A stretch of 64,000 nucleotides of DNA from the NCBI GenBank assembly GCA_964395975.1, contig CAYNBZ010000001.1, forward strand, positions 28,267 through 92,266. The letters run 5' to 3'. Made by a program: the position numbers and the translations under genes. Of this stretch, positions 2,641-60,642 are shown one piece after another. How positions within the stretch are numbered: the stretch's first letter is position 1; each line of letters opens with the position of its first letter. A model generated the notes under the pieces. It ran no database searches, was not told where the DNA came from, and was given only the letters and a program-made list of their open reading frames with translations. The stretch comes from an uncultured Muribaculaceae bacterium. GTDB taxonomy: Bacteria; Bacteroidota; Bacteroidia; Bacteroidales; Muribaculaceae.

Positions 2641-2646
2641 CTGTTT

Positions 2647-5297: not shown

Positions 5298-5311
5298 AAA
5301 ATGATAATGTA

Positions 5312-6457: not shown

Positions 6458-6480
6458 CATAGTAAGGATAATATTAAGTG

Positions 6481-17307: not shown

Positions 17308-17344
17308 TCGCTGTGCGTTATGCTGCATAATTTTATTCAAGTTG

Positions 17345-43937: not shown

Positions 43938-43987
43938 TATCGAAAAATGTAAAAACAAGAAATAAACTTAACGAAATGGAAGAGAAA

Positions 43988-45256: not shown

Positions 45257-45284
45257 AACGGCTTTGTTGAACGGATAAAGAACG

Positions 45285-45320
45285 GTTACACTCCAACGAG
45301 AGGGTGTAACTGTTTCTTTG
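45285..45320 (+). terminator. Intrinsic terminator/attenuator after the imelysin gene
   Basis: 9-bp stem GTTACACTC / GGGTGTAAC (includes one G-U pair), followed by TGTTTCTTTG. Confidence 0.55.
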
Positions 45321-45367
45321 CCTTTAGAAAATATGAATTTTATAGAATAATTAATAAAATTTATCAT

Positions 45368-47029
45368 ATGAAAAAATATAGGTATTTATTGACTGCAACT
45401 ATTTGTTTTGCAGGACTTGTGGCTTGTAGTGATGATATTTCTGATAGCTCGCAGGATAGCGGAGATGATGCCACGACCGAACTCCCTGATTGGTATTACA
45501 CAGGTGGCGTGTTGGGAACAACCTCTCTGAACAATATTACCACGGCTTTTGAGCAGCCAACGCCTGTTGCTGAGGGTGCTGAATTTTTTAATTCATTTAA
45601 ACGGGGAGAGCAACTGTTTGAAAAAGCATTTAACAGTGAATCCAATGGAGTGCGCAGTGGCCTCGGTCCACTTTATATACGCACTTCGTGCCAGCATTGT
45701 CATCCGGGTTACGGACATGGAAAAAGCCAATCGGCTGGCTCATTCAATACAACAGATATCGGTAATGGCTACTTACTGGTGGTTTATGATCCAGAAACCA
45801 ATTCTTATGTATCGTGGCTGTCAGGTATGCCTCAAACTAAAGCAGTGGCTCCATTCAAAGCTCCGCTTGATGAATCGCAAATCATGATTTCGTGGACAGA
45901 ATATACCGACATATGGGGAAACTGCTTCCCTGATGGTGAAACATATTCATTACGCTACCCTACAGTGACAATTCCGAAGGAAGCTATTTATGTTGCCAAC
46001 AGGGGGTATGATGTGGGAAATTATGAGGTTCGCCTTGAGTCAACTATCGGTATATATGGCACAGGGCTGCTTGATGCTATAACCGATGAGGATTTAAAAG
46101 CACAATATGCAGAAGAAGAAAACGATGGCTACTTGAAAAACGGGCTTAATCCCAACATATTTGCCGGTGGCGAATGGGTTGGGCAATATTCTAACACTTC
46201 GCAAGGCGGCGATGGCACAAAATATCCTTACCGCTTCACTTATGCTTTAAGTCGTGGACCTTTGCAAGATGGTCCCGGTGCAAACGCATTTTGGAATATA
46301 ACTAATGTAACTCGCAGCGATCGTCGTTTCCACTACCTTGATGGTGCAGGAAGTTATGCAACATATGCATCGCAAGATCCTGACATTCAAGATGGATTCC
46401 CTGATTACATTGCACAAATTTCCAATGCAGAGGAACATCCCGAATGGTTTACCGATAATGTTGAGGATAATATTTACAATTATCTGACTTCTACAGATTT
46501 GCCGATAGAAATTTCTGACGAAGACTATATAGATCTCATGGTTTGGCATCGTGGTCTTGCCGTGCCGGCAGCCCGAAATGTCGATGACGAAGATGTCTTA
46601 CTCGGCAAAGAATTATTTGAAGAAATCGGTTGCTCTTATTGTCACCGTCCGACATGGACCACAGGCAGTGATGAAATACGCGATCCCGCTCGTTTCTTCG
46701 TTGGAGAAACGGCAGATGAACTGCCCCGATACCCATATCAAAAAATATGGCCTTACACCGATATGATACAACATAAATTACATATGGTCAATGATATCCG
46801 CACAGGTTGGTGTCGTACCACTCCATTATGGGGACGTGGTTTACACCAACGTTGTACAGGTGCAGAATATGCCGACCGCCTGCATGACTGTCGAGCTCGT
46901 ACTACGTTGGAAGCCATCATGTGGCATGGTACAAGTACTGAAAGCGATGCTTACGAAACTGTTGAGAAATTTCGTGAATTGTCGAAGGAAGAACGTGATG
47001 CTGTGGTCAAATTCCTTGATTCAATATAA
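45368..47029 (+). CDS. Di-haem cytochrome c peroxidase-like protein (DUF1111, 'thiol oxidoreductase') lipoprotein
   Basis: 553 aa. Lipobox LVACSDD and two CxxCH haem-binding motifs (CQHCH, CSYCH). Confidence 0.8.
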   Translation: MKKYRYLLTATICFAGLVACSDDISDSSQDSGDDATTELPDWYYTGGVLGTTSLNNITTAFEQPTPVAEGAEFFNSFKRGEQLFEKAFNSESNGVRSGLGPLYIRTSCQHCHPGYGHGKSQSAGSFNTTDIGNGYLLVVYDPETNSYVSWLSGMPQTKAVAPFKAPLDESQIMISWTEYTDIWGNCFPDGETYSLRYPTVTIPKEAIYVANRGYDVGNYEVRLESTIGIYGTGLLDAITDEDLKAQYAEEENDGYLKNGLNPNIFAGGEWVGQYSNTSQGGDGTKYPYRFTYALSRGPLQDGPGANAFWNITNVTRSDRRFHYLDGAGSYATYASQDPDIQDGFPDYIAQISNAEEHPEWFTDNVEDNIYNYLTSTDLPIEISDEDYIDLMVWHRGLAVPAARNVDDEDVLLGKELFEEIGCSYCHRPTWTTGSDEIRDPARFFVGETADELPRYPYQKIWPYTDMIQHKLHMVNDIRTGWCRTTPLWGRGLHQRCTGAEYADRLHDCRARTTLEAIMWHGTSTESDAYETVEKFRELSKEERDAVVKFLDSI

Positions 47030-47049
47030 TCGGAAAAAGATTTATGGAT

Positions 47050-47080
47050 GCAGAGGGTGTGGTATTCTTACACCCTCTGC
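47050..47080 (+). terminator. Intrinsic terminator after the DUF1111 gene
   Basis: Perfect 11-bp stem GCAGAGGGTGT / ACACCCTCTGC with a 9-nt loop, followed by ATTCGTT. Confidence 0.6.
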
Positions 47081-47144
47081 ATTCGTTACTTCGAGTCATT
47101 TAATGGTAAATTTACAATCACGATAAATTTTGTTATTTTTATCG

Positions 47145-47152
47145 TATTTTTG
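47145..47152 (+). promoter_or_regulatory. -7 promoter box (TATTTTTG) upstream of ccsBA
   Basis: Matches TAnnTTTG, about 128 nt upstream of the ATG at 47280. Confidence 0.35.
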
Positions 47153-47279
47153 TCGGCGGTGGCGTGTATGGCTTTTTATTGTAATTAGTTTCGTTGTTCT
47201 CTATGTATCAAGTAATAGAGTAGCGTCCTGCTGTTTGCGTATGTTGAATCTGGATTCAGAATAAGTTAAAATTACTATA

Positions 47280-49496
47280 ATGACAAAAAAAACAAAGCTG
47301 TTCCGTAACTTGAGTTTTGGGCTCGCAGTATTGACAATAGTGGTGCTTGTTTGTGCCTCGGTGTTGGAAACCGTTTGTGGAACGAATCACATTTACGGAT
47401 CCCCGCTTTTTGTTGCATTGTGGACGGCTTTAGCCGTTTTTTCAATAGTATATATCATTATTCGTAAGATGCAACGGCGAAAAATTATACTTCTGCTGCA
47501 TCTGTCGTTTGTCGTTATCCTTGCGGGAGCTTTTATTACGCATGTATGGGGAGTGCAGGGCTCGATTCATTTACGACAAGGGGAAATGCCTGTATGTCAG
47601 TTTATTACTAATGATGGCATAAACGGAGTACTTCCATTTGAAATATCGCTGAACAGTTTCGAACTTGTGTATTACCAGGGAACTTTTGCCCCGATGGATT
47701 ATGTAAGTTCTGTGTTGATACATGATGGCGATGGTATGCATGAGGGTGTGGTATCGATGAACAATATATACGACTATAAAGGGTATCGTTTTTATCAATC
47801 GACTTATGACTATGATAGACATGGTAGTACCCTTTCGATTTATTACGACCCGTATGGTATAGCTGTAACTTACATAGGTTATGTGTTGTTGATATTGTCG
47901 GTGCTGTTGTTTTTTTTCGATCCTAAAAGCTATTTTCGGCAATTACTGAATCATCCTTTATTACGGAAATCTGTTATGGCATCACTGTTGGCAGTTATGG
48001 CATTTCCGTCTTTTGCCAGCGATACCCCCAAGACATTACCTCGGTCTACAGCTGTAGAATTTGGCAATATGTATGTTTATTATAATGATCGTGTTTGCCC
48101 AATGCAGACACTCGCACGAGATTTTACAGTTAAATTGTATGGGAAATCAACATATAAGGGGATGACTGCCGAACAAGTGCTTACAGGGTGGTTTTTTTAT
48201 TATGACGATTGGAAAACCGAACCTATAATTTATGTGAAAAGCAAGGAAGTCCGACAGTTGCTTGGCATTGAAGGAAAATACGCGCGGCTTGTCGACTTTT
48301 TCGACAATAATGGGTATAAACTGGATTATTCACGGCATCAGGAAACTGGTACATGGGATATGCGTGGCGTGAGAGAAGCTGACGAGAAGTTCAATCTTAT
48401 AAGCATGGTAAGCACCGGAAATGCTTTGAAGATGTATCCCTATCGAGAAAACGACAGTTTGCAACTTGTGTGGTATTCCATATCTGAGAGGCTTCCGGCC
48501 TCAATGCCTCACGAACAATGGGCGTTTGTGCGTTATAGTATGAATTATATAGCAGAGCAAGTGGCAAAAAAAGATTTTGACGGGGTCAATACGCTTATTG
48601 TAAAAACTCGGAAATATCAAGAACGCGAAGCTGCCGGTTTTTTGCCGGACAACACTCGCTTCCGCGCAGAGAAGTTATATAATGCGTTTGATTATACCCG
48701 TCCGGTGGCAATGGTATGTCTCATGGTGGGAATCTTATCATTTTTCTTTTATTGTTGGCGCATGTTACGTGGACGAACAGGTCGTTCGTGGTTGGATGTT
48801 GTACTGTTGGCTCTGATAGCAGTGTTGTTGTTTTACATAGTTACCGTAATGACATTGCGGGGCATTACGGCGGGGCATTTTCCTGCTACCAATGGATTTG
48901 AAACTATGCAACTGATGGCTGCTTGCGTATTGGTAATATCGATTTTGTCTTACCGCAGGTTTGAGGCTGCTCTTTCATTTGGATTTATATTGTGTGGGCT
49001 TGCCATGCTTGTGGCTATGATGGGAGAGTCCAATCCATCGGTTACTCCATTGCTCCCTGTGCTTTCATCGCCTTTGCTCAGCATTCATGTTATGACAATT
49101 ATGATATCATACTCGTTATTTGGTTTTGCTATGCTTAATGGAATTGTTGCGATAATTATCAGGTATTCGGGTCGGGCATGTTTTGAGCAAGTTGAGCGAT
49201 TGCAAGTAATCAGTCAACTGATATTGTATCCTGCTGTTTTTTTGCTTGCCATTGGTATTTTCATAGGAGCTGTTTGGGCCAATGTGTCATGGGGACGTTA
49301 TTGGGGATGGGATCCCAAAGAAACGTGGGCATTGATAACACTGCTTGTTTATGCAGCAGCGTTGCATTTGAAATCGCTACCAGCCATGCGTCGTCCTATG
49401 TTTTTCCATTGGTTTACGGTAATAGCATTCTTTTGCGTATTAATTACTTATTTCGGTGCTAATTTTATTATGAAGGGGCTACATAGTTATGCTTGA
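47280..49496 (+). CDS. ccsA: System II cytochrome c biogenesis protein, fused ResB/CcsB-CcsA (CcsBA)
   Basis: 738 aa with N-terminal TM helices, a large periplasmic ResB-like region and a C-terminal CcsA domain carrying the tryptophan-rich WWD motif WGRYWGWDPKETWA. Confidence 0.8.
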   Translation: MTKKTKLFRNLSFGLAVLTIVVLVCASVLETVCGTNHIYGSPLFVALWTALAVFSIVYIIIRKMQRRKIILLLHLSFVVILAGAFITHVWGVQGSIHLRQGEMPVCQFITNDGINGVLPFEISLNSFELVYYQGTFAPMDYVSSVLIHDGDGMHEGVVSMNNIYDYKGYRFYQSTYDYDRHGSTLSIYYDPYGIAVTYIGYVLLILSVLLFFFDPKSYFRQLLNHPLLRKSVMASLLAVMAFPSFASDTPKTLPRSTAVEFGNMYVYYNDRVCPMQTLARDFTVKLYGKSTYKGMTAEQVLTGWFFYYDDWKTEPIIYVKSKEVRQLLGIEGKYARLVDFFDNNGYKLDYSRHQETGTWDMRGVREADEKFNLISMVSTGNALKMYPYRENDSLQLVWYSISERLPASMPHEQWAFVRYSMNYIAEQVAKKDFDGVNTLIVKTRKYQEREAAGFLPDNTRFRAEKLYNAFDYTRPVAMVCLMVGILSFFFYCWRMLRGRTGRSWLDVVLLALIAVLLFYIVTVMTLRGITAGHFPATNGFETMQLMAACVLVISILSYRRFEAALSFGFILCGLAMLVAMMGESNPSVTPLLPVLSSPLLSIHVMTIMISYSLFGFAMLNGIVAIIIRYSGRACFEQVERLQVISQLILYPAVFLLAIGIFIGAVWANVSWGRYWGWDPKETWALITLLVYAAALHLKSLPAMRRPMFFHWFTVIAFFCVLITYFGANFIMKGLHSYA

Positions 49497-49559
49497 TTTT
49501 GCATATTCGTTGTTGTGCAGATATGTTCCTTTTGGCAGATAAAGTTGTTTTTTTTGAAA

Positions 49560-49613
49560 ATAGGGTGTTAAAATTGTTATATAGGGTGATGTATTAAACG
49601 GATAAACCCTATA
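49560..49613. promoter_or_regulatory. Three copies of ATAGGGT flanking or overlapping the promoter of the sulfonation operon
   Basis: ATAGGGTG occurs at 49560-49567 and 49581-49588 (21-bp spacing). An inverted copy ACCCTATA lies at 49606-49613. Copies 2 and 3 form TATAGGGT-N18-ACCCTATA, whose right arm overlaps the -7 box. Confidence 0.6.
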
Positions 49614-49617
49614 TTTG
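49610..49617 (+). promoter_or_regulatory. -7 promoter box (TATATTTG) for the transporter-cysCDN-sulfotransferase operon
   Basis: Matches TAnnTTTG, 152 nt upstream of the ATG at 49769. Confidence 0.45.
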
Positions 49618-49632
49618 CAAATCATAACAACT

Positions 49633-49661
49633 AGATAAGCCAATTAACAATTGGCTTATCT
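49633..49661 (+). promoter_or_regulatory. Perfect 13-bp inverted repeat at the 5' end of the operon leader (operator or 5' stem-loop)
   Basis: AGATAAGCCAATT-AAC-AATTGGCTTATCT starts about 10 nt after the predicted transcription start. Confidence 0.7.
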
Positions 49662-49768
49662 TCTTAAATTATGCTTAAAGTAGTTTGTTTTTTGTTGCGC
49701 CTTGATGTGTCCGAGCGTGAAAGTCGTTGGTTATATGGAGGGAAAGCTATAAAAAGATAAAGTTTGGT

Positions 49769-51331
49769 ATGAATTTAGACATAGCATTAGTCTTGGTAGC
49801 TCTTGTGGCAATGCTTGCAGCATTGGTTGCCGACAAACAACGACCGGGGATGATATTGTTTTCGGTAGTAGTATTCTTTTTGTGTTGCGGTATTATTTCT
49901 CCTCGAGAACTTTTAGAAGGTTTCAGTAACAAAGGAATGATAACAGTGGCACTGCTCTATCTGGTTAGCGAGGGAATCAGACAATCGGGAGCGTTAAGCC
50001 AAATGATAAAGAAAATTTTGCCGCAAGGTAATGCAACGGTTTTCAAGGCGCAATTGCGCATGTTGCCGGCCATTGGTTGCATTTCGGCTTTCCTTAACAA
50101 TACGCCAGTAGTGGTGATCTTTGCTCCTATTATAAAAAGGTGGGCAAAGTCGGTTAACTTGCCTGCGACAAAATTTTTGATACCGCTTTCTTATGTGACA
50201 ATTCTCGGAGGCTTGTGTACACTTATAGGCACATCCACCAACCTTGTAGTGCATGGCATGATGATAGATGCCGGTTACAAGGGAATGTCGATGTTTGAAT
50301 TGACTTGTATTGGTGTCCCGATTACCGTAGTCGGCATTGCTTACATACTTTTTGCGTCTAAACGACTATTGCCTGAAGAACGCCGAAGTGCCGAAATTGT
50401 GGAAGAAGAGGAGGAAAAGACTGAAAATTTACATCCTGTGGAAGTAGTGTTGGGAGCTCGTTTCCCTGGAATCAATAAGACACTTAAAGAATTTGATTTC
50501 AAACGTCATTATGGGGCAGAGGTCAAAGAAATAAAACGCTATGGCGAAGCCATCACTAAACGTGTTGATAGAGTGCGTTTGTGTGAAGGTGATACGCTTG
50601 TTATTCTTGCCGATGATTCATTTGTCGAAGCGTGGGGGGAGTCGTCGGTGTTCCTTATGATTGCCAATGGCAAAGATGCCACACCACAGCCAAAGCGAAG
50701 CAAGCGTACATTTGCATTAGTGTTGGTTATACTTATGATTGTAGGGGCTACGATCGGTGAATTGCCGGTGACACAAGAAATGTTCCCTAATATAAAGCTT
50801 GACATGTTCTTCTTTGCTGCGGTAACAACTGTCATCATGGCATGGACCAATATTTTCCCGGCCCGAAAATATACCAAGTTTATATCATGGGACATATTGA
50901 TAACCATAGCTTGTGCATTTGCCATAAGCAAGGCTATGACCAATTCGGGACTTGCCGACATGATTGCCAACTTTATCATTACCGTGAGCTATAGCTTTGG
51001 ACCGTATGTGTTGCTTGCAATATTGTATTTGATAACGAATATAATCACCGAACTCATAACCAATAATGCAGCTGCTGCACTTGCTTTTCCACTTGCATTG
51101 TCGCTTGCCAGCCAACTTGGAGTGGATCCTATGCCATTTTTTATGGTAATTTGTGTTGCGGCGACGGCAAGTTTTTCCACACCGATAGGCTATCAAACCA
51201 ATCTTATTGTACAAGGTATTGGAAATTATAAATTTACGGATTTTGTGAAAGTGGGTTTGCCTCTCAACATAATTTGTTTCTTGATTTCAATATTCCTGAT
51301 ACCTCAGATATGGCCTTTTGAACTTAATTAG
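49769..51331 (+). CDS. SLC13/DASS-type anion permease with an internal TrkA-C domain (probable sulfate transporter)
   Basis: About 520 aa. Two polytopic halves are separated by a cytoplasmic RCK_C-like segment (VEVVLGARFPGINKTLKEF...GDTLVILAD). It is the first gene of the cysCDN cluster. I prefer the ATG at 49769. Confidence 0.75.
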   Translation: MNLDIALVLVALVAMLAALVADKQRPGMILFSVVVFFLCCGIISPRELLEGFSNKGMITVALLYLVSEGIRQSGALSQMIKKILPQGNATVFKAQLRMLPAIGCISAFLNNTPVVVIFAPIIKRWAKSVNLPATKFLIPLSYVTILGGLCTLIGTSTNLVVHGMMIDAGYKGMSMFELTCIGVPITVVGIAYILFASKRLLPEERRSAEIVEEEEEKTENLHPVEVVLGARFPGINKTLKEFDFKRHYGAEVKEIKRYGEAITKRVDRVRLCEGDTLVILADDSFVEAWGESSVFLMIANGKDATPQPKRSKRTFALVLVILMIVGATIGELPVTQEMFPNIKLDMFFFAAVTTVIMAWTNIFPARKYTKFISWDILITIACAFAISKAMTNSGLADMIANFIITVSYSFGPYVLLAILYLITNIITELITNNAAAALAFPLALSLASQLGVDPMPFFMVICVAATASFSTPIGYQTNLIVQGIGNYKFTDFVKVGLPLNIICFLISIFLIPQIWPFELN

Positions 51332-51337
51332 ACTATA

Positions 51338-51943
51338 ATGGAAGATAAAAACATATATCCTGTGTTCGACAAGATGCTTCAGCGTTCCGACAAAGAAACA
51401 TTGTTGGGACAACGAGGATTAATGGTGTGGTTTACAGGTCTTAGTGGCTCGGGAAAGAGTACGATAGCAATAGTACTCGAACGCGAATTGCAGAGCCGTG
51501 GCATATTGTGTCGTCTGCTTGATGGCGATAATATACGTACCGGCATTAACAACAACCTTGGATTTAGCGAAAACGACCGTATGGAAAATATTCGCCGTAT
51601 TGCCGAGGTGGCAAAATTATTTGTAGATACTGGCATAGTCACTTTGGCCGCGTTTATCAGTCCGTTGAAATCAATGCGCCGTATGGCTGCCGATATTATA
51701 GGGAAAGATGATTTTGTTGAAATATACGTTAGTACTCCTATCGAGGAATGTGAACGGCGTGATGTGAAAGGACTATATGCTAAGGCACGTCGTGGCGAAA
51801 TCAAGGATTTCACCGGAATTTCTGCTCCTTTCGAAGCTCCTGAAGATCCCACGCTTGTCCTTGATACTTCTCGTTTATCGTTGCAGCAGTCGGTTGAGGC
51901 TGTATTGCAACTTGTGTTACCAAAGATATATAAGAAATATTAG
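51338..51943 (+). CDS. cysC: Adenylyl-sulfate (APS) kinase
   Basis: 201 aa. P-loop WFTGLSGSGKSTIA and LDGDNIR motif. Confidence 0.9.
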   Translation: MEDKNIYPVFDKMLQRSDKETLLGQRGLMVWFTGLSGSGKSTIAIVLERELQSRGILCRLLDGDNIRTGINNNLGFSENDRMENIRRIAEVAKLFVDTGIVTLAAFISPLKSMRRMAADIIGKDDFVEIYVSTPIEECERRDVKGLYAKARRGEIKDFTGISAPFEAPEDPTLVLDTSRLSLQQSVEAVLQLVLPKIYKKY

Positions 51944-51949
51944 CTATAG

Positions 51950-52861
51950 ATGGAAGAAAATTATAAGCTGAGCCACTTGAAAGAACTTGAGGCCGAATCG
52001 ATCCACATAATACGTGAAGTAGCAGCCGAATTTGAAAATCCGGTGATGCTATATAGTATCGGCAAGGATTCGTCTGTCATGGTGCGCCTTGCCGAAAAAG
52101 CATTTTATCCGGGTAAGGTTCCGTTTCCGTTAATGCATATTGATTCGAAATGGAAATTCAAAGAAATGATACAGTTTCGTGACGAGTATGCCAAGAAATA
52201 TGGTTGGAATCTTATCGTTGAGAGTAATATGGAAGCTTTTAAGGCCGGTGTGGGGCCATTTACTCATGGCAGCAAGGTACATACCGACTTGATGAAGACT
52301 CAAGCTTTGTTACATGCTCTTGACAAATATAAATTTGATGCTGCATTTGGCGGTGCACGGCGCGATGAAGAGAAATCCCGCGCCAAGGAGCGTATTTTCT
52401 CGTTTCGCGATCGTTTCCATCAATGGGATCCGAAAAATCAGCGTCCTGAGTTGTGGAACATATACAACACACGTGTACATAAGGGAGAGAGTATAAGGGT
52501 GTTCCCCCTTAGCAATTGGACCGAACTTGATGTGTGGCAATATATAAGATTAGAAAATATTCCCATAGTGCCGTTATATTTTGCTAAAGAACGTCCGGTA
52601 GTAGAAATTGATGGCAATCTTATTATGGCCGATGACGACCGTTTGCCGGAAAAATATCGCAATAAGATACAAATGCGTATGGTGCGATTTCGCACGCTTG
52701 GTTGTTGGCCGTTGACAGGAGCTGTCGAAAGCAATGCCGATACCATTGAGAAAATCGTTGAAGAGATGATGACTACCACCAAGAGCGAGCGTACCACGCG
52801 CGTCATCGACTTTGATCAAGAGGCAAGTATGGAGCAAAAAAAACGGGAGGGGTATTTTTAA
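51950..52861 (+). CDS. cysD: Sulfate adenylyltransferase subunit 2
   Basis: 303 aa. PAPS-reductase-fold motif YSIGKDSSV and a CysD-typical C-terminus (...[10 protein letters not shown]). Confidence 0.9.
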
Positions 52862-52870
52862 GCAACTACG

Positions 52871-54328
52871 ATGATGGAAAAATTAGACATAAAAGCATTC
52901 CTTGACAAAGATGAACGGAAAGATTTGTTGAGATTTCTTACAGCCGGCTCGGTCGATGATGGTAAATCAACGTTGATAGGCCATTTGCTTTATGACAGCA
53001 AGAAGATTTATGAAGACCAGCTCGATGCACTCAAGCGCGACAGCAAGCGTATTGGCAATGCCGGTGACCATATTGATTATGCTTTGTTGCTCGATGGGTT
53101 GAAGGCTGAACGCGAGCAGGGTATCACCATTGATGTGGCGTATAGGTATTTCTCTACCAATAATCGTAAGTTTATCATAGCTGACACACCGGGACATGAA
53201 CAATATACTCGCAACATGATTACCGGTGGCTCTACTGCTAACCTTGCTGTAATACTTGTTGATGCCCGTCTTGGCGTGATCACACAGACTCGCCGCCACA
53301 CATTCCTTGTGTCACTGCTTGGTATAAAGCACGTGGCGTTGGCGGTAAACAAGATGGACTTAGTTGGCTTCTCCGAAGATCGTTTTAATGAGATTGTTAC
53401 CGATTACATGAAATTTATTGAGCCGCTTGGTATCCCGGATGTAACGTGCATACCGTTGTCTGCACTTGAAGGCGACAACGTGGTGGAGAAGTCGGTTCGC
53501 ACTCCATGGTATGATGGAAAGACGCTCCTTGATTACCTTGAGACAGTGCATATAGATAACGATCACAATTTTTCAGACTTCCGATATCCGGTGCAATATG
53601 TATTGCGCCCGAATCTAGATTTCCGTGGTTTCTGTGCGAAGGTTGCTTCGGGTATTGTTTGTAAGGGTGATGAAGTTGTCGCTCTGCCGTCGGGAAAACG
53701 TTCTCGGGTAAAAAGCATAGTGACTTATGACGGAGAACTTGACCGTGCATTCCCACCACAGTCGGTTACACTCACTTTGGAAGATGAGATAGACGTGTCG
53801 CGTGGCGACATGCTTGTATGTCCCGATAATATGCCGTATGTTGGTCGAAATTTCGAGGCAATGCTTGTATGGATGGACGAAGAGGTTATGGATAACAGCA
53901 AATCATTCTTTATCAAGCATACAACCAACACAAGTCGTGCGCATATCGACAGCATCAAATATAAGGTTGATGTAAACACCATGGAACATTTATCGATAGA
54001 AAACGGCAAGCTCACCAAGGAAACGTTGCCCATGCAACTTAACCAGATAGCTCGTGTGGTTATAACCACTGCCCGTGAATTGTTCTTCGATCCATTCAAT
54101 AAAAACAAGGCTACAGGCTCGTTTATCCTCATCGATCCCATAAGTAACAACACTTGTGCCGTAGGTATGATTATCGACCGTATTGATGATAAAGACATGC
54201 TCAGTGATGCCAGTCTGCCTATACTCGACTTGCCAAAAATCGGCATAAATTCTGAGCATTACGATGCAGTTGAACGTGTTGTTAAAGAATTGTATCGTCA
54301 GGGCGTTGAAGTGAAGATTATTAAATAA
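52871..54328 (+). CDS. cysN: Sulfate adenylyltransferase subunit 1 (GTPase)
   Basis: 485 aa. G1 [13 protein letters not shown]3 DTPGHEQY, G4 NKMD. It is not fused to an APS kinase. Confidence 0.9.
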
Positions 54329-54342
54329 ACGACTTATCATAC

Positions 54343-55455
54343 ATGGGATTATTGGATTTTAACAAATTGCCTGTAAACACGTTGGTTGGTGCCGACTGGG
54401 ATACCTTTAAGAAGATTACCGCAGGACGTGAGATTGGAACCGGATATGTAACCAAATATATGCTTACGAAAGGGGTATGTCGGTTGATGTCGATGTTTTC
54501 GTCCATACAAGAAGGCAAATATGCACGTCAGTTGCAGCCTATGCCTATGCTTTACGACCCTGTGTTTATTCTTGGGCATTGGCGTAGTGGAACGACGTTT
54601 GTTCACAATGTTCTTGCTTGTGACAAACACTTTGGGTATTGTACCACTTATCAGACTGTATTTCCGCATTTGATTATGTGGGGACAACCGTTTTTCAAGA
54701 AGGCGATGAGTTGGCTCATGCCCGACCATCGTCCTACCGATAACATGGAACTTGCCGTTGACCTGCCCCAAGAAGAAGAGTTTGCCCTCTCCAATATGTC
54801 ATCGTGTAATTATTACAATTTTTGGTATTTCCCTCAGGCCATGCAGGAATATGCCGAGAAGTATTTGCTCATGAATGACATTTCGGACGAAGAATTGCAG
54901 GAATTTGAGTCGGTGTTTACCAAATTGATAAAAATATCGCTGTGGAATACCAATGGGACGCAATTCTTGAGTAAAAATCCACCTCATACGGGGCGCGTGC
55001 GCGAACTTGTTAAGATGTATCCCAATGCGAAATTTATTTATTTGATGCGGAATCCATATACGGTATTTGAAAGCACTCGTAGCTTTTTTAATAATACCAT
55101 TAAGCCACTCCAATTGCAGTCTATAAGCAGTGAAGAACTTGAGCATAACATATTATCAATATATGCCAAGTTATATCATAAGTATGAAGCCGATAAAGAT
55201 TGCATACCTGCAGGGAATCTGATTGAAGTTAAATTTGAGGATTTTGAAGCGGATGCAATGGGTATGACTGAAAAAATATACAGGACACTCGATATTCCAG
55301 GATTTGATGTTGCTCGACCTGCTATTGAAAATTATGTCAGTAGCAAGAAGGGGTATAAGAAAAACAAGTACAAATATGACGACCGTACGGTACAATTAGT
55401 TCATGACAATTGGGGATTTGCACTTAACGACTGGAATTATCATCTTGATGAATGA
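54343..55455 (+). CDS. PAPS-dependent sulfotransferase family protein (cytoplasmic)
   Basis: 370 aa. 5'-phosphosulfate-binding loop GHWRSGTTFVHN and a 3'-phosphate-binding-like motif YLMRNPYTVFES. No signal peptide. It starts 14 nt after cysN. Confidence 0.8.
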   Translation: MGLLDFNKLPVNTLVGADWDTFKKITAGREIGTGYVTKYMLTKGVCRLMSMFSSIQEGKYARQLQPMPMLYDPVFILGHWRSGTTFVHNVLACDKHFGYCTTYQTVFPHLIMWGQPFFKKAMSWLMPDHRPTDNMELAVDLPQEEEFALSNMSSCNYYNFWYFPQAMQEYAEKYLLMNDISDEELQEFESVFTKLIKISLWNTNGTQFLSKNPPHTGRVRELVKMYPNAKFIYLMRNPYTVFESTRSFFNNTIKPLQLQSISSEELEHNILSIYAKLYHKYEADKDCIPAGNLIEVKFEDFEADAMGMTEKIYRTLDIPGFDVARPAIENYVSSKKGYKKNKYKYDDRTVQLVHDNWGFALNDWNYHLDE

Positions 55456-55492
55456 TTTATTGTGGTAGTAACCGCTATTGTTAAATTTGAAT

Positions 55493-56446
55493 ATGAAAGC
55501 AATAAAGTTTTTTATAGTTGCTTCGGCTTTGTGGCTTTGCGGCGAAGCAGCGGCTCAGCCGGGTGTTTATATGGTCAACTATGGCGATATGGATCATTGG
55601 ATTGACCGCCAAATTAAAGAATCGGGAATTATCGGCGGTGAAACGAAACACGTATGGGCAATCGGTCCCACAATGACTATTGAGGGGGATGAGGCTTATG
55701 TCAATAAAGGAGGCTCGCCATGGGGATCGTCTAATGTAATGGCCAAAGTGGCCGGTATTACCAAAACCAATACATCGGTTTTCCCTGAAGAGCGTGGCGA
55801 TGGTTATTGTGTCCGTCTTGAAACTCGTATGGAAAAAGTGAAAGTACTCGGACTTATTAATATGGAGGTGCTTGCTGCCGGCTCGATATTCCTTGGTAAC
55901 GTGCATGAGCCAATTAGAGGGACTAAAAATCCGCAGAAAATGCTTAATTCCGGCATACCGTTCACCAAGCGTCCCGTTGCTATCATGTTTGACTATAAAG
56001 TGCAAATGTCATCTCGGACCAATCGTATAAAAGCAACCGGCTTTGGAAGCAAAAAAGAAGTTGAAGGGCGTGATTTGCATGAGGTGAATCTGTTCCTGCA
56101 AAAACGTTGGGAAGACGAAGATGGAAATATTTATGCCAAACGCATAGGTACGATGGTGGTGCGCTTCGATGAAGATTGCGATTGGCAAAATAATGCTTCA
56201 TTTACAATTCATTATGGCGATATTACAAATGAGCCGTTTTACGATGAAAGTATGATGGGTCTTACAGATTTGCGTTATGCCGTCAATAGCAAGGGGGAAA
56301 GCGTTCCGATTCAAGAAATAGGTTGGGGTGATACTGATGATGAACCCACACACCTTCAAGTACAATTTACAGCCAGTCATGGTGGAGCCTACATTGGTTC
56401 TCCCGGCAATATTTTGTGGATTGATAATGTTAAGTTGGTGTATTAG
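55493..56446 (+). CDS. Secreted protein, probably PCMD (putative carbohydrate metabolism domain) family
   Basis: Signal peptide ending AAAQ. SPWGSSNVM, AAGSIFLGN, GIPFTKRPVAIMFDYKV and the C-terminal GSPGNILWIDNVKLVY resemble PCMD-domain proteins as I remember them. I prefer the ATG at 55493 over the TTG at 55478. Confidence 0.5.
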   Translation: MKAIKFFIVASALWLCGEAAAQPGVYMVNYGDMDHWIDRQIKESGIIGGETKHVWAIGPTMTIEGDEAYVNKGGSPWGSSNVMAKVAGITKTNTSVFPEERGDGYCVRLETRMEKVKVLGLINMEVLAAGSIFLGNVHEPIRGTKNPQKMLNSGIPFTKRPVAIMFDYKVQMSSRTNRIKATGFGSKKEVEGRDLHEVNLFLQKRWEDEDGNIYAKRIGTMVVRFDEDCDWQNNASFTIHYGDITNEPFYDESMMGLTDLRYAVNSKGESVPIQEIGWGDTDDEPTHLQVQFTASHGGAYIGSPGNILWIDNVKLVY

Positions 56447-56478
56447 TATTACAGAACATAGCATAATTGAAAAAAACT

Positions 56479-56517
56479 AGGGTGACCCTTCATGTCATTA
56501 TTGACTTTTGGGTCACC
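56479..56517. terminator. Bidirectional terminator between the sulfonation operon and the convergent GH2 gene
   Basis: 9-bp stem GGGTGACCC / GGGTCACCC, flanked by AAAAAA (left) and GCGTTTTTTC (right). Confidence 0.6.
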
Positions 56518-56544
56518 CGCGTTTTTTCAATAAGTAAAGTACAA

Positions 56545-59043
56545 TTATTCGCTGATAATGTCTATTGTACCTTTCTTTAGACCTTTGGCTGTAGCTTCAA
56601 GGGTTATTTTACCCGGAGTTTCGGTTGATGATACTATCGCTGTCATCATGCCGCTGAATACGTGCATGTGTGGTGCTTGAAACGATTCAAGTGATGCTGG
56701 ATCGCCATTGGCACCGGCACGATAGAACCCTGCACCTTTCACCTTAAACGAGATTTCGTTATCGGCAAGAGGGCATAGGTTGCCATCTTTGTCAACGACT
56801 TTTACGGTTACAAATGACAGATCTTTCCCGTCGGCCTTTATTTGTTGACGGTCTGCTTCAAGCACGATGTGATGCGGCTTGCCGGCAGTGTGCATTTCTG
56901 TTTCGGCAACTGCATTACCATCGTTGTCATAGGCTACTACTTTCACAGTGCCGGGCTCATACTTTGTATCCATCCACATGAGGCGGTAACGTTGTTGACG
57001 CAAGAAACGGTCAGATCCAACAGTGTCTTCGCTGTTTTCAACCTTTATTGATAGGTCTTTGGTTCGTTTCCCTTGGCTTTTGCCGTTTATAAATACTTCG
57101 GCTGTTGGATAATTGGTATAAACGAATATTGGTGTTACTTCCCCTTCACGGCCTTCCCAGTTCCAATGCGGTAGTACATGGAGAGTTTCGGCATCCTTGT
57201 TCCAATGGCTGCGATATAGATAATATCTGTCTTTTGGCAGTCCTGCAAGGTCAATGATTCCGAAAAGTGATGAGTGGCTTGGCCAATCGCTATAATATGG
57301 AGTAGGTTCGCCGAGATAGTCAAAGCCCGTCCATACGAACTCTCCTATGCAATAAGGAAGGTCTTCGTGTTGGATGAAGTCGTCTTCCGGAAGATTTGAC
57401 CAACTGCAATGTTCAACATCGTAGGATGATGACTGATGGTCGGGATATTTCTGCATCGACTGGCGGACAACAGGAAATTTGTAAATTCCACGGGAGCTTA
57501 CTGTAGAGGCAGTTTCGCTACCGAGTATAATTTCTTGTGGCAGTTTGTCATAGTTTTGTTGATACTTGTGCGGACGGTAGTTGAATCCTGCCACATCCAT
57601 GGTAGCCGCTATATTGTTGTTGACAACGGCATCTACATTGTCCATACCTTGTGTTACCGGTCGCGTGGGGTCTTCACGATGACAAATGTCTTGCAGGAAA
57701 CGAGACAATTTGCTTCCTAAGTTTCCCGGCCACTGATCGGGAACTTCATTGCCCACACACCACATTACGATACTTGGGTTATTGCGGAACTGATGCAAGA
57801 GATTAACCACATCTTTCTCGGCCCATTCATCAAAGAATTTATGGTATCCATTTTCCATTTTCGGCGTTTTCCATTCATCGAAGGTTTCAGCCATTACCAT
57901 AAAGCCCATTTCATCACAAGCGCGTACAAGTTCTGGAGCCGGCATATTGTGTGAAGTGCGGATGGCATTACAGCCCATGTCTTTCAGTATCCTTAACTGC
58001 CGGCGTATTCCTGCGTCATTGACGATTGCTCCCAACGGTCCAAGGTCGTGGTGGTTGCACACGCCTTTGAATACGGTGCGTTCGCCATTGAGGTAGAATC
58101 CCTTGCCGGGTATAATCTCAATTGTACGGACACCGAATGTGGAGGCATATTCGTCTTTTAAAATATTGCCTTCATAAATTTTTGATTCTGCCGAATAAAG
58201 GGTAGGAGTTTCGGGCGACCATAACGATGGATTGTCGATGATGAAGTCTTGTTCAAAGTTATTACCGTCATAGTTAGAGCCTTGTTTTTCAGCCGAAGCA
58301 ACTATGTTGCCAGATGCATCTTTCAGCTCGGTGACTATGCGGTAGTTGGAAATGCTTTTGCCTTCGGGCATTTCTAAATTAGTTGTTAGGTGTACTTTCG
58401 CAAACTCGTTGTTTACCTCCGGTGTGGTAAGATGTGTCCCCCATACAGGCACATGGGCATCTTCATTGATAATCAGGTGTACGTTGCGGTAAAGGCCGGC
58501 ACCCGGATACCAACGTGATGATTCAACCTCATTTTCAAGGCGTACTGCCAATGTATTGACACCATCCGACTTTAAATAAGGGGTAACATCAAAATGAAAA
58601 GAATTATATCCGTATGGCCAATACCCGACTTCGTGTCCATTAAGCCATACACGGGCATGGCTCATGGCTCCGTCGAAGACGAGGGTTGCCCTTTTGCTTG
58701 AAGAAAACTCTGGCGTTTCAAATTCAAGGCGATACCAGCCTACACCAATAAATGGCAGACCGCCGGTGCGCCCCGCATGTTCTATTGCTTCTGTCTGTCC
58801 ATCTTGTGAGATGGCCATGTTCTGCTTGTCATTGTCAATGCTGAAAGGTCCATATATGGCCCAATCATGCGGAACCACTACTGACTGCCACTTCGCATCG
58901 TCGAAAGTTTCGTTACTGAAGTCTTGCTGATCTTCTCGGGTGAATTTCCACCCTTTCTCGAATGTCCGTTGAACTCGCACTTGTGCCACAATTCCTTGGG
59001 TTACGAATGCAAATAAAACGGCTAATAAACAGAATGTTCGCAT
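56545..59043 (-). CDS. Glycoside hydrolase family 2 (beta-galactosidase-like), secreted
   Basis: 832 aa with a signal peptide. Sugar-binding N-domain (WKF..., VVPHDW), TIM-barrel motifs NAIRTSHNMP and NNPSIVMWCVGNEV, and C-terminal Ig-like domains. Confidence 0.85.
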   Translation of the reverse strand: MRTFCLLAVLFAFVTQGIVAQVRVQRTFEKGWKFTREDQQDFSNETFDDAKWQSVVVPHDWAIYGPFSIDNDKQNMAISQDGQTEAIEHAGRTGGLPFIGVGWYRLEFETPEFSSSKRATLVFDGAMSHARVWLNGHEVGYWPYGYNSFHFDVTPYLKSDGVNTLAVRLENEVESSRWYPGAGLYRNVHLIINEDAHVPVWGTHLTTPEVNNEFAKVHLTTNLEMPEGKSISNYRIVTELKDASGNIVASAEKQGSNYDGNNFEQDFIIDNPSLWSPETPTLYSAESKIYEGNILKDEYASTFGVRTIEIIPGKGFYLNGERTVFKGVCNHHDLGPLGAIVNDAGIRRQLRILKDMGCNAIRTSHNMPAPELVRACDEMGFMVMAETFDEWKTPKMENGYHKFFDEWAEKDVVNLLHQFRNNPSIVMWCVGNEVPDQWPGNLGSKLSRFLQDICHREDPTRPVTQGMDNVDAVVNNNIAATMDVAGFNYRPHKYQQNYDKLPQEIILGSETASTVSSRGIYKFPVVRQSMQKYPDHQSSSYDVEHCSWSNLPEDDFIQHEDLPYCIGEFVWTGFDYLGEPTPYYSDWPSHSSLFGIIDLAGLPKDRYYLYRSHWNKDAETLHVLPHWNWEGREGEVTPIFVYTNYPTAEVFINGKSQGKRTKDLSIKVENSEDTVGSDRFLRQQRYRLMWMDTKYEPGTVKVVAYDNDGNAVAETEMHTAGKPHHIVLEADRQQIKADGKDLSFVTVKVVDKDGNLCPLADNEISFKVKGAGFYRAGANGDPASLESFQAPHMHVFSGMMTAIVSSTETPGKITLEATAKGLKKGTIDIISE

Positions 59044-59400
59044 AATATATAAATATTTTTAAATGATGTTTATAAACTTAGGTAGTTTGATTGATGATGG
59101 ACAGCATATTGCTTTAATAACATAGATATATTAACAAAAGAGGTAAATATGGCATTATGAAAGCTATTTAAAAAAAAGATTATCGCCTTTTTCCTAGAGG
59201 CTAAAGATACAAAATTTTATTGTAAGACTTATGTTTTTCGCAAATAAATTGATATATGAAAAATAATCAGAAAGATTGGCATTCCTGTTTATGTATGAAG
59301 TCGTTGAGTGTGGGCAAGATGGGAGAGTGGATGTTGTGCAGATTTGACAATTTTGCCAACTGAATGGAATCCGTTATGTGGTCATCTCTTTAAAAGGATA

Positions 59401-60642
59401 TCATTTAAGCAAGAGTGTGGCATCACCGTAACTGAGGAAACGGAAATCATGCCTGAGCGCGTAATCATAAATCGTGCGCCAATCGCCATCGACGAACGCA
59501 GATACAAGAAGTAGCAGCGTTGATTGCGGTTGGTGGAAATTGGTAATCATTCCATCGATAATGTGGAAACGGAATCCAGGGGCTATCATGATTTGTGTGC
59601 TGCCGATGTAATTGTCGGCATGATGTCGGTCAAGATAATCGATGATGGCTTGTAAGGCAACACGCATATCAGGTTCGTTGACTGAGTCGATAGTGTATGG
59701 CAGCCATTGGCTTATGCATAGTTCTCCCTCTTCGGCATTGGGATTGTTCAATAGCGTAAGTCCTATGTAGTATAAGCTTTCGAGGGTACGTACAGATGTT
59801 GTGCCTACGGCAATTACCGGATTCTTACCTGCGTTTCTGATAAGGTCGGTAAGCAATGACCGTGGAACTGAAATAAACTCGGTGTGCATTTGATGGCCGC
59901 CAATTGTTTCGGATTTTACAGGTTGAAATGTCCCTGCACCTACATGCAGTGTGAGTTCACGCCGTTGTATCCCTCTGCGGTCGCACTCGCCAAGTATACT
60001 ATCGGTGAAGTGCAGACCCGCCGTAGGGGCAGCTACGCTTCCGTCGATGTGTGAGTAAACTGTTTGGTAATTCTCATTGTCGCTTGGTTCGGTAGCACGG
60101 TTTAGATAGGGAGGTATTGGAATCTCCCCAACGGCACATAGTATTGATGCAAATGTTATATTATCGTTATCCCATGAAAACTCTACAATGAATGCATTGC
60201 CTTGCCTTTCTTTGCGCATTGCGGTGAGTGTTACTTGTTGGGCATCAATATGCAAATCCATGTGCAGGTGGTCGTTTTTCCATCGTCGAGCATTTCCAAT
60301 GAAGCAAATCCATGAGCATCCGCTTGTGGATGCAAAGACTTGTGCATAGTCACGTGGGTTATACGGTTCAAGGCAAAACACTTCGATCCATGCACCGCCA
60401 TTCGGCTTGCGAAAGCGAAGTCGAGCATTAATCACACGAGTGTTGTTATATATGAGTATTGCACCTTGTGGCAGCAGTTGAGGAATCTCATAGAAACGGT
60501 ATTCTCCTTTGATTGCATGTTTGCTGTAACATAGTAGTTTACATTGTTCACGGTCGTCCAATGGGTATTTGGCAATACGTTCATCTGGAAGCGGATAATT
60601 GAAATCCTCTATGCGCAGGTTGCGAATTTCATCGATTGTCAT
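59401..60642 (-). CDS. queA: S-adenosylmethionine:tRNA ribosyltransferase-isomerase (long form)
   Basis: Motifs: FNYPLPDERIAKYP, PIPPYL, APTAGLHFT, VGAGTF, AVGTTSVRTLES, ITNFHQPQSTLLLL, FLSYGDATLL. I prefer the start at MTIDEI (60642). Confidence 0.85.
   Translation of the reverse strand: MTIDEIRNLRIEDFNYPLPDERIAKYPLDDREQCKLLCYSKHAIKGEYRFYEIPQLLPQGAILIYNNTRVINARLRFRKPNGGAWIEVFCLEPYNPRDYAQVFASTSGCSWICFIGNARRWKNDHLHMDLHIDAQQVTLTAMRKERQGNAFIVEFSWDNDNITFASILCAVGEIPIPPYLNRATEPSDNENYQTVYSHIDGSVAAPTAGLHFTDSILGECDRRGIQRRELTLHVGAGTFQPVKSETIGGHQMHTEFISVPRSLLTDLIRNAGKNPVIAVGTTSVRTLESLYYIGLTLLNNPNAEEGELCISQWLPYTIDSVNEPDMRVALQAIIDYLDRHHADNYIGSTQIMIAPGFRFHIIDGMITNFHQPQSTLLLLVSAFVDGDWRTIYDYALRHDFRFLSYGDATLLLK

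What the first reader, a model, noticed from the sequence alone, without database searches (positions are those of the whole stretch)
49769..56446. Dedicated sulfonation locus: anion transporter, cysC, cysD, cysN, cytoplasmic sulfotransferase and a secreted PCMD-like protein
Six co-directional genes are separated by only 6-37 nt and bracketed by a promoter box and a bidirectional terminator.

The first four encode sulfate import and the complete PAPS-synthesis route. The fifth carries canonical PAPS-binding motifs (WRSGTT loop, RNPYTVFES).

The window contains no PAPS/APS reductase (cysH) and no sulfite reductase. PAPS is therefore more likely used here as a sulfate donor than for assimilation.

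From memory, this architecture matches the Bacteroides thetaiotaomicron locus around BT0412-BT0416, which was reported to sulfonate cholesterol and related steroidal metabolites. I cannot verify orthology here.

The acceptor substrate cannot be read from the sequence. No PAP phosphatase (cysQ) is present in the cluster. The sixth gene, a secreted protein, is not explained by the known pathway.
Basis: partly seen in the sequence, partly recalled or inferred. Interest (0 to 1): 0.7.

Follow-up and report, generated by a model that had tools for sequence, protein, structure and literature searches.

The report
Known gut-bacterial steroid sulfonation operon
This is a Muribaculaceae-type copy of the already published Bacteroides gene cluster that makes the sulfate donor PAPS and uses it to sulfonate cholesterol-like steroids; it is real and correctly read, but not new, apart from a conserved secreted sixth gene whose role is still unknown.

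Summary
Six co-directional genes (49769-56446) are separated by 6, 6, 9, 14 and 37 nt. They encode an SLC13/CitMHS-type anion permease, CysC, CysD, CysN, a cytoplasmic Sulfotransfer_3 enzyme and a secreted PCMD-domain protein. A conserved Bacteroidetes-type promoter box lies upstream and a strong two-way terminator hairpin lies downstream.

This is the counterpart of the B. thetaiotaomicron BT_0412-BT_0416 cluster, whose sulfotransferase BT_0416 (BtSULT) sulfonates cholesterol. The same gene order occurs in 60 of 67 species-level loci. The sulfotransferase is 73-78% identical to those of Bacteroides and Phocaeicola, genera with species reported to make cholesterol sulfate. The published BT_0416 cloning primers map to the exact ends of this orthogroup's ORF.

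No cysH, sulfite reductase or cysQ is in the 64-kb window.

Two small additions:
- The cysQ gene that precedes the transporter in Bacteroidaceae (50 of 59 loci) is missing in this Muribaculaceae-type variant.
- The sixth gene belongs to the cassette (61 of 79 loci; 72 of 72 in the reverse test). It has a carbohydrate-binding-module-like β-sandwich fold and is dispensable for the chemistry.

Verdict: a new member of a known kind, of low to moderate interest.

The parts
49530..49620 (+). Conserved promoter region: upstream blocks ATAAAGTTGT (about 49539-49548) and TGTTAAAATT (about 49566-49575), and the -7 box TATATTTG (49610-49617)
   Evidence: Sequence. The box and both blocks are conserved in all 9 Muribaculaceae-type loci aligned. 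Promoter function is inferred; the TAnnTTTG consensus comes from my own knowledge.
49633..49661 (+). Perfect 13-bp inverted repeat with a 3-nt loop in the roughly 150-nt leader; found only in this window
   Evidence: None of the 8 related loci has this palindrome. No Rfam match. Role unknown.
49769..51331 (+). Anion permease of the ion-transporter superfamily (CitMHS/SLC13-like) with about 10 or more hydrophobic segments and a central hydrophilic insert; counterpart of BT_0412, the proposed sulfate importer
   Evidence: Pfam CitMHS 1.1e-60 and Na_sulph_symp 1.2e-14. DASS 99 bits, below its 198.6 cut-off. 65-75% identical to the first gene of the Bacteroidaceae clusters (71-75% in most) and 84-87% to Muribaculaceae ones. 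The insert gives only a sub-threshold TrkA_C match (18.3 bits against 27). Sulfate as substrate is the proposal of Le et al., not shown.
51338..51943 (+). cysC, APS kinase (P-loop GLSGSGKST)
   Evidence: APS_kinase 1.4e-64. NCBIfam adenylyl-sulfate kinase, 247.6 bits against a cut-off of 163.
51950..52861 (+). cysD, small subunit of sulfate adenylyltransferase
   Evidence: NCBIfam CysD equivalog, 508 bits against a cut-off of 413. 88-97% identical across loci.
52871..54328 (+). cysN, GTPase subunit of sulfate adenylyltransferase ([14 protein letters not shown] and NKMD motifs visible)
   Evidence: NCBIfam CysN equivalog, 694 bits against a cut-off of 590. Sequence.
54343..55455 (+). Cytoplasmic PAPS-dependent sulfotransferase, ortholog of BtSULT/BT_0416. 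Motifs: GHWRSGTT 78-85 (5'-phosphosulfate-binding loop), KNPPH 211-215, RNPYTVFES 236-244 (3'-phosphate-binding motif)
   Evidence: Sulfotransfer_3 9.7e-41. Motifs do not vary in 75 orthologs. 73-85% identity to 80 species-level loci. Primer anchoring to BT_0416. 75.9% identity over the full length to L160, the locus closest to the B. thetaiotaomicron primers. Weak PDB match to mycobacterial Stf1, 2zq5, 3.2e-07.
55493..56446 (+). Secreted PCMD-domain protein (alternative TTG start at 55478): signal peptide, a small N-terminal β domain and a C-terminal β-sandwich; function unknown; a conserved last gene of the cassette
   Evidence: PF13201 1.5e-23. Directly downstream of the sulfotransferase in 61 of 79 loci. 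Reverse test 72 of 72. AlphaFold2 model pLDDT 91.9. Foldseek finds 3hbz, 4jrl and 4het, then carbohydrate-binding modules.
56466..56530 (.). Two-way intrinsic-terminator-like hairpin between the convergent PCMD and GH2 genes: 9-bp G+C-rich stem at 56480-56488 and 56510-56518, with an A7 run before it and a T6 run after it
   Evidence: z = -5.9 on the + strand, -4.6 on the - strand; 0 of 200 shuffles as stable.

Best explanation
The locus is a six-gene operon that activates sulfate and spends it on sulfonation, not on cysteine synthesis.

Proposed steps:
1. Transcription starts at a Bacteroidetes-type promoter near 49610, runs through a leader of about 150 nt and stops at the hairpin near 56500.
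2. The SLC13/CitMHS-type permease brings in sulfate (inferred).
3. CysD and CysN make APS from sulfate and ATP, driven by GTP hydrolysis. CysC phosphorylates APS to PAPS. These functions follow from family membership.
4. The cytoplasmic Sulfotransfer_3 enzyme, an ortholog of B. thetaiotaomicron BtSULT/BT_0416, transfers the sulfo group from PAPS to the 3-hydroxyl of cholesterol-like steroids with a flat A/B ring system. The products are steroid sulfates and PAP. The activity is shown for the Bacteroides ortholog and inferred here.
5. PAP must be removed by a phosphatase encoded elsewhere. The cysQ gene that heads the Bacteroidaceae version of the cluster is absent from this Muribaculaceae-type version.
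6. The sixth gene encodes a secreted, non-enzyme-like β-sandwich protein. It is probably co-transcribed and is most likely an accessory binding protein. It is not needed for the chemistry.
For: - Gene identities.
- Tight spacing.
- Conserved promoter. Terminator.
- Gene order conserved in 60 of 67 loci across Bacteroides, Mediterranea, Phocaeicola and Muribaculaceae.
- Sulfotransferase 73-78% identical to those of Bacteroides and Phocaeicola, genera with species reported to make cholesterol sulfate (B. caccae, B. uniformis, B. vulgatus, B. thetaiotaomicron).
- BT_0416 cloning primers map to the ends of this orthogroup's ORF.
- BT_0416 alone sulfonates cholesterol in E. coli and in vitro, and its deletion abolishes the activity.
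- BtSULT substrate range (cholesterol, DHEA, pregnenolone, calcifediol, isoalloLCA).
- Labelled sulfate enters cholesterol sulfate in B. thetaiotaomicron.
- PAPS-binding motifs do not vary.
- No cysH, sulfite reductase or cysQ in the window.
- B. thetaiotaomicron is reported to lack enzymes for reductive use of APS or PAPS.
Against: - No activity data exist for this ortholog. At about 76% identity the acceptor preference could differ.
- BT_0416 itself was not compared over its full length. Only its 13 N-terminal and 11 C-terminal residues were available, through the primers.
- The rest of the source genome could not be searched, so a distant cysH/cysIJ set cannot be excluded.
- Sulfate as the permease's substrate is a proposal only.
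- Co-transcription of all six genes is inferred from spacing and from the lack of an internal terminator. It was not measured. Le et al. saw Bt_0412 and Bt_0416 respond differently to lactose, so internal regulation is possible.
Confidence: 0.85

Rival explanations
1. The operon is the first half of assimilatory sulfate reduction. PAPS is made for reduction to sulfite and sulfide and then for cysteine synthesis. The sulfotransferase is a passenger.
For: cysD, cysN and cysC are the standard first steps of assimilation. The rest of the genome could not be inspected.
Against: No PAPS/APS reductase or sulfite reductase is in the 64-kb window. In 60 of 67 loci the cys genes are fixed next to the sulfotransferase. 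B. thetaiotaomicron, with the same cluster, is reported to encode no enzymes for further reductive use of APS or PAPS.
Confidence: 0.04
2. In this lineage the sulfotransferase's natural acceptor is not a host or dietary steroid. It could be a bacterial lipid, a glycan or a glycolipid. The carbohydrate-binding-module-like sixth protein would point to a carbohydrate link.
For: The sixth protein has a PCMD/carbohydrate-binding-module-like β-sandwich fold. More distant paralogs sit in glycan contexts: SusC/SusD with GH3, and GH5 with GT4. Other gut bacterial Sulfotransfer_3 enzymes act on non-steroids, for example ErSULT on hydroxy fatty acids. The acceptor pocket cannot be read from the sequence.
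Against: The enzyme belongs to the same tight orthogroup (at least 72% identity, same length, same cassette) as those of species shown to sulfonate cholesterol. P. vulgatus lacks the sixth gene at this locus (L078) yet makes cholesterol sulfate. So the sixth gene does not define the acceptor.
Confidence: 0.09
3. The cluster mainly makes APS or PAPS for release and cross-feeding to sulfite-reducing neighbours such as Bilophila.
For: Proposed for B. thetaiotaomicron in PMC11610557.
Against: That is a hypothesis in the cited paper, and no export of these nucleotides is shown in the passages I read. The sulfotransferase fixed in the operon gives an internal consumer. No nucleotide exporter is evident in the cassette.
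Confidence: 0.02

Closest known systems
Bacteroides thetaiotaomicron BT_0411/0412-BT_0416 steroid sulfonation cluster (BtSULT; Le et al. 2022, PMC9417993; Yao et al. 2022, Nat Microbiol 7:1404, cited but not held in the library)
   Same: Same gene order: transporter, cysC, cysD, cysN, sulfotransferase. The sulfotransferase is about 76% identical to close B. thetaiotaomicron relatives, has about the same length (370 against 368 aa) and the same invariant PAPS-binding motifs. There is no reductive branch nearby. In the loci closest to the B. thetaiotaomicron primers (L160, L056, L052) a PCMD gene also follows the sulfotransferase.
   Different: There is no cysQ (BT_0411-like) gene ahead of the transporter, so the promoter sits directly before the transporter. 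The host is a Muribaculaceae-type organism rather than Bacteroidaceae. The flanking genes are unrelated. Activity is untested.
Human cytosolic hydroxysteroid sulfotransferases SULT2A1 and SULT2B1b
   Same: Same reaction (PAPS plus a 3-hydroxysteroid gives a steroid sulfate plus PAP). The 5'-phosphosulfate-binding loop and the RNP...S 3'-phosphate motif look analogous; the motif comparison is from my own knowledge.
   Different: A different Pfam family scores best: Sulfotransfer_3 at 9.7e-41 against Sulfotransfer_1 at 2.9e-07. The bacterial protein is about 370 aa and is reported not to superimpose fully on the human enzymes. It is encoded with its own PAPS-synthesis genes.
Mycobacterial Stf1-type sulfotransferases (PDB 2zq5, 2z6v)
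   Same: The closest solved structures by sequence. They share the GxxRxGTT loop and the KNPxH segment.
   Different: Similarity is weak (E = 3.2e-07 over about 140 residues). They are not orthologs, and the entries are deposited as uncharacterised proteins.
PCMD-domain structural-genomics proteins BT_2081 (3hbz), BACOVA_00087 (4jrl) and BT3745 (4het)
   Same: The sixth protein shares their fold (Foldseek E from 1.9e-08 to 2.4e-07, probability 1.0) and their Pfam family.
   Different: Only 15-18% identical, with TM-scores of 0.42-0.47. Those proteins are 340-348 residues long in the structures, against 317 aa for the full precursor here. None of them has a known function.

Membership tests
BtSULT (BT_0416) steroid-sulfonation gene cluster | The sulfotransferase is orthologous to BT_0416 | tested here: met
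   73-78% identity over the full length to the single-copy cluster gene in B. ovatus, B. finegoldii, B. fragilis and P. vulgatus. The BT_0416 primer sites lie at the exact ORF ends in this orthogroup. 75.9% identity to L160, the locus closest to the primers. Caveat: full-length BT_0416 was not available.
BtSULT (BT_0416) steroid-sulfonation gene cluster | cysC, cysD and cysN lie immediately upstream on the same strand | tested here: met
   (gaps of 6-14 nt). The same holds in 60 of 67 loci.
BtSULT (BT_0416) steroid-sulfonation gene cluster | A BT_0412-type permease is the gene upstream of cysC | tested here: met
   65-75% identity to the corresponding gene of the Bacteroidaceae loci, 71-75% in most. 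CitMHS/Na_sulph_symp families.
BtSULT (BT_0416) steroid-sulfonation gene cluster | A cysQ-type PAP phosphatase (BT_0411 position) heads the cluster | tested here: not met
   Present in 50 of 59 loci, all Bacteroidaceae-type. Absent in the window and in L001-L007 and L009. No copy anywhere in the window. This gene is peripheral to the published core (BT_0413-BT_0416), so I treat its absence as a variant, not as an exclusion.
BtSULT (BT_0416) steroid-sulfonation gene cluster | PAPS-dependent sulfonation of cholesterol and of 5α or 5-ene steroids | not testable with these tools
   Shown only for BT_0416 and for whole cells of several Bacteroides species.
PAPS-dependent sulfotransferases (Pfam Sulfotransfer_3, PF13469) | Profile match above the gathering score, plus the 5'-phosphosulfate and 3'-phosphate binding motifs | tested here: met
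   140.8 bits against a cut-off of 27. GHWRSGTT and RNPYTVFES do not vary in 75 orthologs.
Assimilatory sulfate reduction (cys regulon) | PAPS/APS reductase (cysH) and sulfite reductase (cysIJ or sir) are present and linked | tested here: not met
   None among the ORFs scanned in the 64-kb window. The whole genome could not be tested.
PCMD domain family (PF13201) | Profile match above the gathering score and the family's β-sandwich fold | tested here: met
   84.2 bits against a cut-off of 28. Foldseek probability 1.0 to 3hbz, 4jrl and 4het. Membership gives no function, because the family is uncharacterised.

The most novel reading that the evidence does not exclude
The secreted PCMD-type β-sandwich protein is a working accessory of bacterial steroid sulfonation. 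It could be a periplasmic or surface binding protein that captures hydrophobic sterols for the cytoplasmic sulfotransferase, or that handles the sulfated product.

What does not exclude this reading:
- The gene is locked to the sulfotransferase in Bacteroides, Mediterranea and Muribaculaceae.
- The pairing persists down to about 50% protein identity.
- The papers I could read do not mention the gene.
Probability: 0.3. Interest if true: 0.55.

Novelty: new member of a known kind. Interest (0 to 1): 0.3.

Why it matters
Bacterial steroid sulfonation changes host cholesterol and cholesterol-sulfate levels and alters the immune activity of bile-acid derivatives. This locus shows that the complete cassette also occurs in Muribaculaceae-type genomes, a family often dominant in rodent guts. 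The papers I could read attribute the activity to Bacteroides and Parabacteroides.

If the ortholog is active, Muribaculaceae should be counted as cholesterol-sulfate producers in mouse studies.

The conserved sixth gene gives a concrete, cheap knockout target for asking how a cytoplasmic enzyme gets access to an extracellular, water-insoluble sterol.

Otherwise the finding adds no new principle.

Tried and rejected
- **Sigma-70 promoter scan.** Uninformative: 30 sites against 20.1 ± 4.9 expected. Bacteroidetes use a different consensus, so I used conservation of the TAnnTTTG box instead.
- **Consensus terminator scan.** It missed the real hairpin because of its loop limit. Folding recovered it.
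- **Rfam on 45000-60000.** No match at E ≤ 1, so the long leader is not a known riboswitch.
- **Leader palindrome (49633-49661).** Not conserved in relatives, so I did not treat it as a system feature.
- **First AlphaFold2 run of the sixth protein.** It used only close orthologs and failed (pLDDT 52.7), so I discarded it. A more diverse alignment gave pLDDT 91.9.
- **Idea that this PCMD subfamily travels with steroid-modifying enzymes.** Two paralogs sit next to SDR-superfamily genes, one with a sub-threshold 3β-HSD match. The other four paralog contexts showed topoisomerase, acyltransferase, GH5 with GT4, and S41 peptidase neighbours. I rejected the idea as unsupported.
- **Full BT_0416 sequence.** Yao et al. 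2022 is not held. Supplements of PMC10932419 lack it. Cluster look-ups returned no B. thetaiotaomicron name. No fetched locus matches both primers within 1 mismatch. Only the termini were recovered.
- **Source organism.** Not recovered. The window's proteins occur on an unnamed NCBI contig of 112,937 bp and in Logan runs SRR7039256 and SRR7039257. 'Muribaculaceae-type' rests on the nearest loci.
- **TrkA_C domain in the permease insert.** Below threshold, so not claimed.

Full report
**1. The observation**

Profile searches give these identities:

| Coordinates | Product | Evidence |
|---|---|---|
| 49769-51331 | Ion-transporter-superfamily permease | CitMHS 1.1e-60; Na_sulph_symp 1.2e-14; the DASS model scores below its cut-off |
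| 51338-51943 | APS kinase (CysC) | APS_kinase 1.4e-64 |
| 51950-52861 | CysD | 508 bits, above cut-off |
| 52871-54328 | CysN | 694 bits, above cut-off |
| 54343-55455 | Sulfotransferase | Sulfotransfer_3 9.7e-41 |
| 55493-56446 (or TTG at 55478) | PCMD-domain protein | PF13201 1.5e-23 |

- The gaps between genes are 6, 6, 9, 14 and 37 nt.
- The sulfotransferase has no hydrophobic segment. The sixth protein starts with a signal-peptide-like sequence ending AAA|Q, with no conserved lipobox cysteine among orthologs.
- Upstream, TATATTTG at 49610-49617 fits the Bacteroidetes -7 box (consensus from my own knowledge). The box and two upstream blocks are conserved in all nine Muribaculaceae-type loci aligned.
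- Downstream, between the convergent PCMD and GH2 genes, a 9-bp G+C-rich stem lies between an A7 run and a T6 run. It folds far better than shuffled sequence on both strands (z = -5.9 and -4.6).

**2. What the window lacks**

- I scanned 46 large, mostly non-overlapping ORFs against Pfam. They were taken from the 61 ORFs of at least 150 aa and cover nearly all of the window.
- CysD is the only PAPS_reduct-family protein. There is no sulfite reductase and no inositol-monophosphatase/CysQ.
- A tblastn search with a Bacteroides CysQ-like protein finds nothing (best E = 1.9).
- The neighbours are unrelated to sulfur. Upstream are an imelysin, a di-haem DHOR protein and a ResB/CcsB cytochrome c biogenesis fusion. 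Downstream, on the other strand, are a GH2 glycosidase and queA.

**3. Relatives**

- A scan of one genome per species returned 80 loci whose sulfotransferase is 72-85% identical over its full length.
- The closest (80-85%) come mostly from Muribaculaceae MAGs, and one is labelled Prevotellaceae (L001-L007, L009). Bacteroides, Phocaeicola and Mediterranea sit at 73-78%.
- In 60 of 67 loci with enough upstream DNA, the transporter, cysC, cysD and cysN precede the sulfotransferase in the same order and on the same strand.
- More than half of the sulfotransferase's residues do not vary across 75 orthologs. These include GHWRSGTT (78-85), KNPPH (211-215) and RNPYTVFES (236-244).
- The flanks of the cassette differ between genomes, even among the closest relatives. 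The six genes therefore behave as one discrete unit.

**4. Link to the published system**

- Le et al. 2022 show that BT_0416 converts cholesterol to cholesterol-3-sulfate in E. coli and in vitro, and that its deletion abolishes the activity.
- They also report that Bt_0411-Bt_0415 are putative PAPS-synthesis genes, with BT_0412 proposed as the sulfate importer, and that B. ovatus and B. fragilis carry identical clusters.
- A 2026 paper from the group that named BtSULT lists its substrates as steroids with a flat A/B ring system (cholesterol, DHEA, calcifediol, pregnenolone, isoalloLCA). It also shows that labelled sulfate enters cholesterol sulfate in B. thetaiotaomicron.
- I could not obtain the full BT_0416 sequence. 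The cloning primers in Le et al.'s Supplementary Table 1 encode its termini: GLLEFNKLPINTL and DFALKQWNYNL-stop.
- Both primer sites lie at the exact ends of the orthogroup's ORF, 1104 nt apart, with 2+2 mismatches in L160 and 3+3 in L056 and L052.
- The window's protein is 75.9% identical (85% similar) to the L160 protein over all 370 residues.

Orthology to BT_0416 is therefore well supported, though it was not shown by a direct full-length comparison.

**5. Donor use, not assimilation**

The window holds no reductive genes. B. thetaiotaomicron, which carries the same cluster, is reported to encode no enzymes for further reductive use of APS or PAPS. The cys genes are fixed next to the sulfotransferase across families. 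Whether the source genome has cysH elsewhere could not be tested.

**6. Two differences from the archetype**

*cysQ.* In 50 of 59 loci with enough upstream DNA, all Bacteroidaceae-type, an Inositol_P-family cysQ-like gene sits directly ahead of the transporter. The window and the eight Muribaculaceae-type loci lack it, and their conserved promoter sits directly before the transporter. PAP must then be cleared by an enzyme encoded elsewhere (inference).

*The sixth gene.*
- A PCMD gene follows the sulfotransferase in 61 of 79 loci.
- In the reverse test, 72 of 72 PCMD-anchored metagenome contigs with enough upstream DNA have the sulfotransferase directly upstream, with gaps mostly of 21-55 nt. 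Many of those contigs probably come from the same few species.
- The pairing persists in relatives only 59% and 50% identical.
- Paralogs at 39-52% identity sit in unrelated contexts.
- The subfamily is small: 520 representatives at E ≤ 0.001 among 1.84 billion proteins.
- A confident AlphaFold2 model (pLDDT 91.9) matches only the uncharacterised PCMD structural-genomics proteins and, more weakly, carbohydrate-binding-module β-sandwiches. No enzyme fold appears.
- The gene is not needed for the chemistry. BT_0416 alone works in E. coli. P. vulgatus, whose locus lacks the gene (L078), still makes cholesterol sulfate.
- No paper in the library discusses this gene.

**7. Mechanism, with its status**

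- *From family membership:* sulfate is converted to APS by CysDN and then to PAPS by CysC.
- *Shown for orthologs, inferred here:* PAPS plus a 3-hydroxysteroid gives a steroid sulfate plus PAP.
- *Inferred only:* sulfate import by the permease; a single transcript from about 49620 to about 56520; PAP removal by a distant phosphatase; an accessory binding role for the secreted β-sandwich protein.

**8. Verdict**

The system was published in 2022 and is described as widespread in gut Bacteroidota.

What is added here:
- a Muribaculaceae-type, cysQ-less variant;
- evidence that a secreted PCMD protein is a conserved but dispensable sixth member of the cassette.

I class it as a new member of a known kind, with interest 0.3.

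Noticed in passing
window 49633-49661: A perfect 13-bp inverted repeat (AGATAAGCCAATT-AAC-AATTGGCTTATCT) lies in the operon leader just after the promoter box. None of the 8 closest loci has this palindrome, though six of them (L001-L006) share a partly similar CAAATGTTAAC element at the same place. It could be an operator or an RNA hairpin.
   Followed up: partly
window 49536-49575: Two sequence blocks (ATAAAGTTGT and TGTTAAAATT) 35-75 nt upstream of the -7 box are conserved across all nine Muribaculaceae-type loci, although the flanking genes differ. They are candidate binding sites for a regulator of the sulfonation operon.
   Followed up: partly
L165-L167, 7001-8865 (each locus): A 52%-identical paralog of the sixth protein is very common (listed in 246 index blocks). 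It has no sulfotransferase nearby and is followed 36 nt later by a 290-aa short-chain dehydrogenase. A 44% paralog (L163) follows a 425-aa protein with a sub-threshold 3β-HSD match. Four other paralog contexts do not repeat the pattern.
   Followed up: partly
L013, L021, L026, L033, L061 (around each sulfotransferase match): In some Prevotella, Alloprevotella and unclassified Bacteroidales loci, and in one contig labelled Lachnospiraceae, the sulfotransferase ortholog (72-74% identity) stands without the adjacent PAPS-synthesis genes. In L023, L028 and L032 the cassette is broken up or partial.
   Followed up: no
window 165-6292: A β-mannan utilisation gene set: GH26 mannanase, GH130 mannoside phosphorylase, an MFS_2 sugar transporter, an N-acylglucosamine 2-epimerase-family protein and a type I phosphomannose isomerase.
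   Followed up: no
window 42624-49496: Four co-directional genes lie directly upstream of the sulfonation operon: a 437-aa protein with no Pfam match, an imelysin (Peptidase_M75), a di-haem DHOR-family protein and a 738-aa ResB/CcsB fusion for cytochrome c biogenesis. None of them neighbours the cassette in any related locus.
   Followed up: no
window 6478-8010 and 13882-17340: A bacterial member of the GH3 family (all three GH3 domains match) and a 1152-aa protein with a TMEM260-like O-mannosyltransferase domain. Both families are better known from eukaryotes.
   Followed up: no
window 49769-56446 compared with L001-L080: Cassette proteins are unusually conserved between Muribaculaceae-type and Bacteroidaceae loci (CysD 88-97%, CysN 75-85%, sulfotransferase 73-78%), while the flanks are unrelated. 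This could mean strong purifying selection or lateral spread of the cassette among gut Bacteroidales. I could not make a comparison with housekeeping genes.
   Followed up: no
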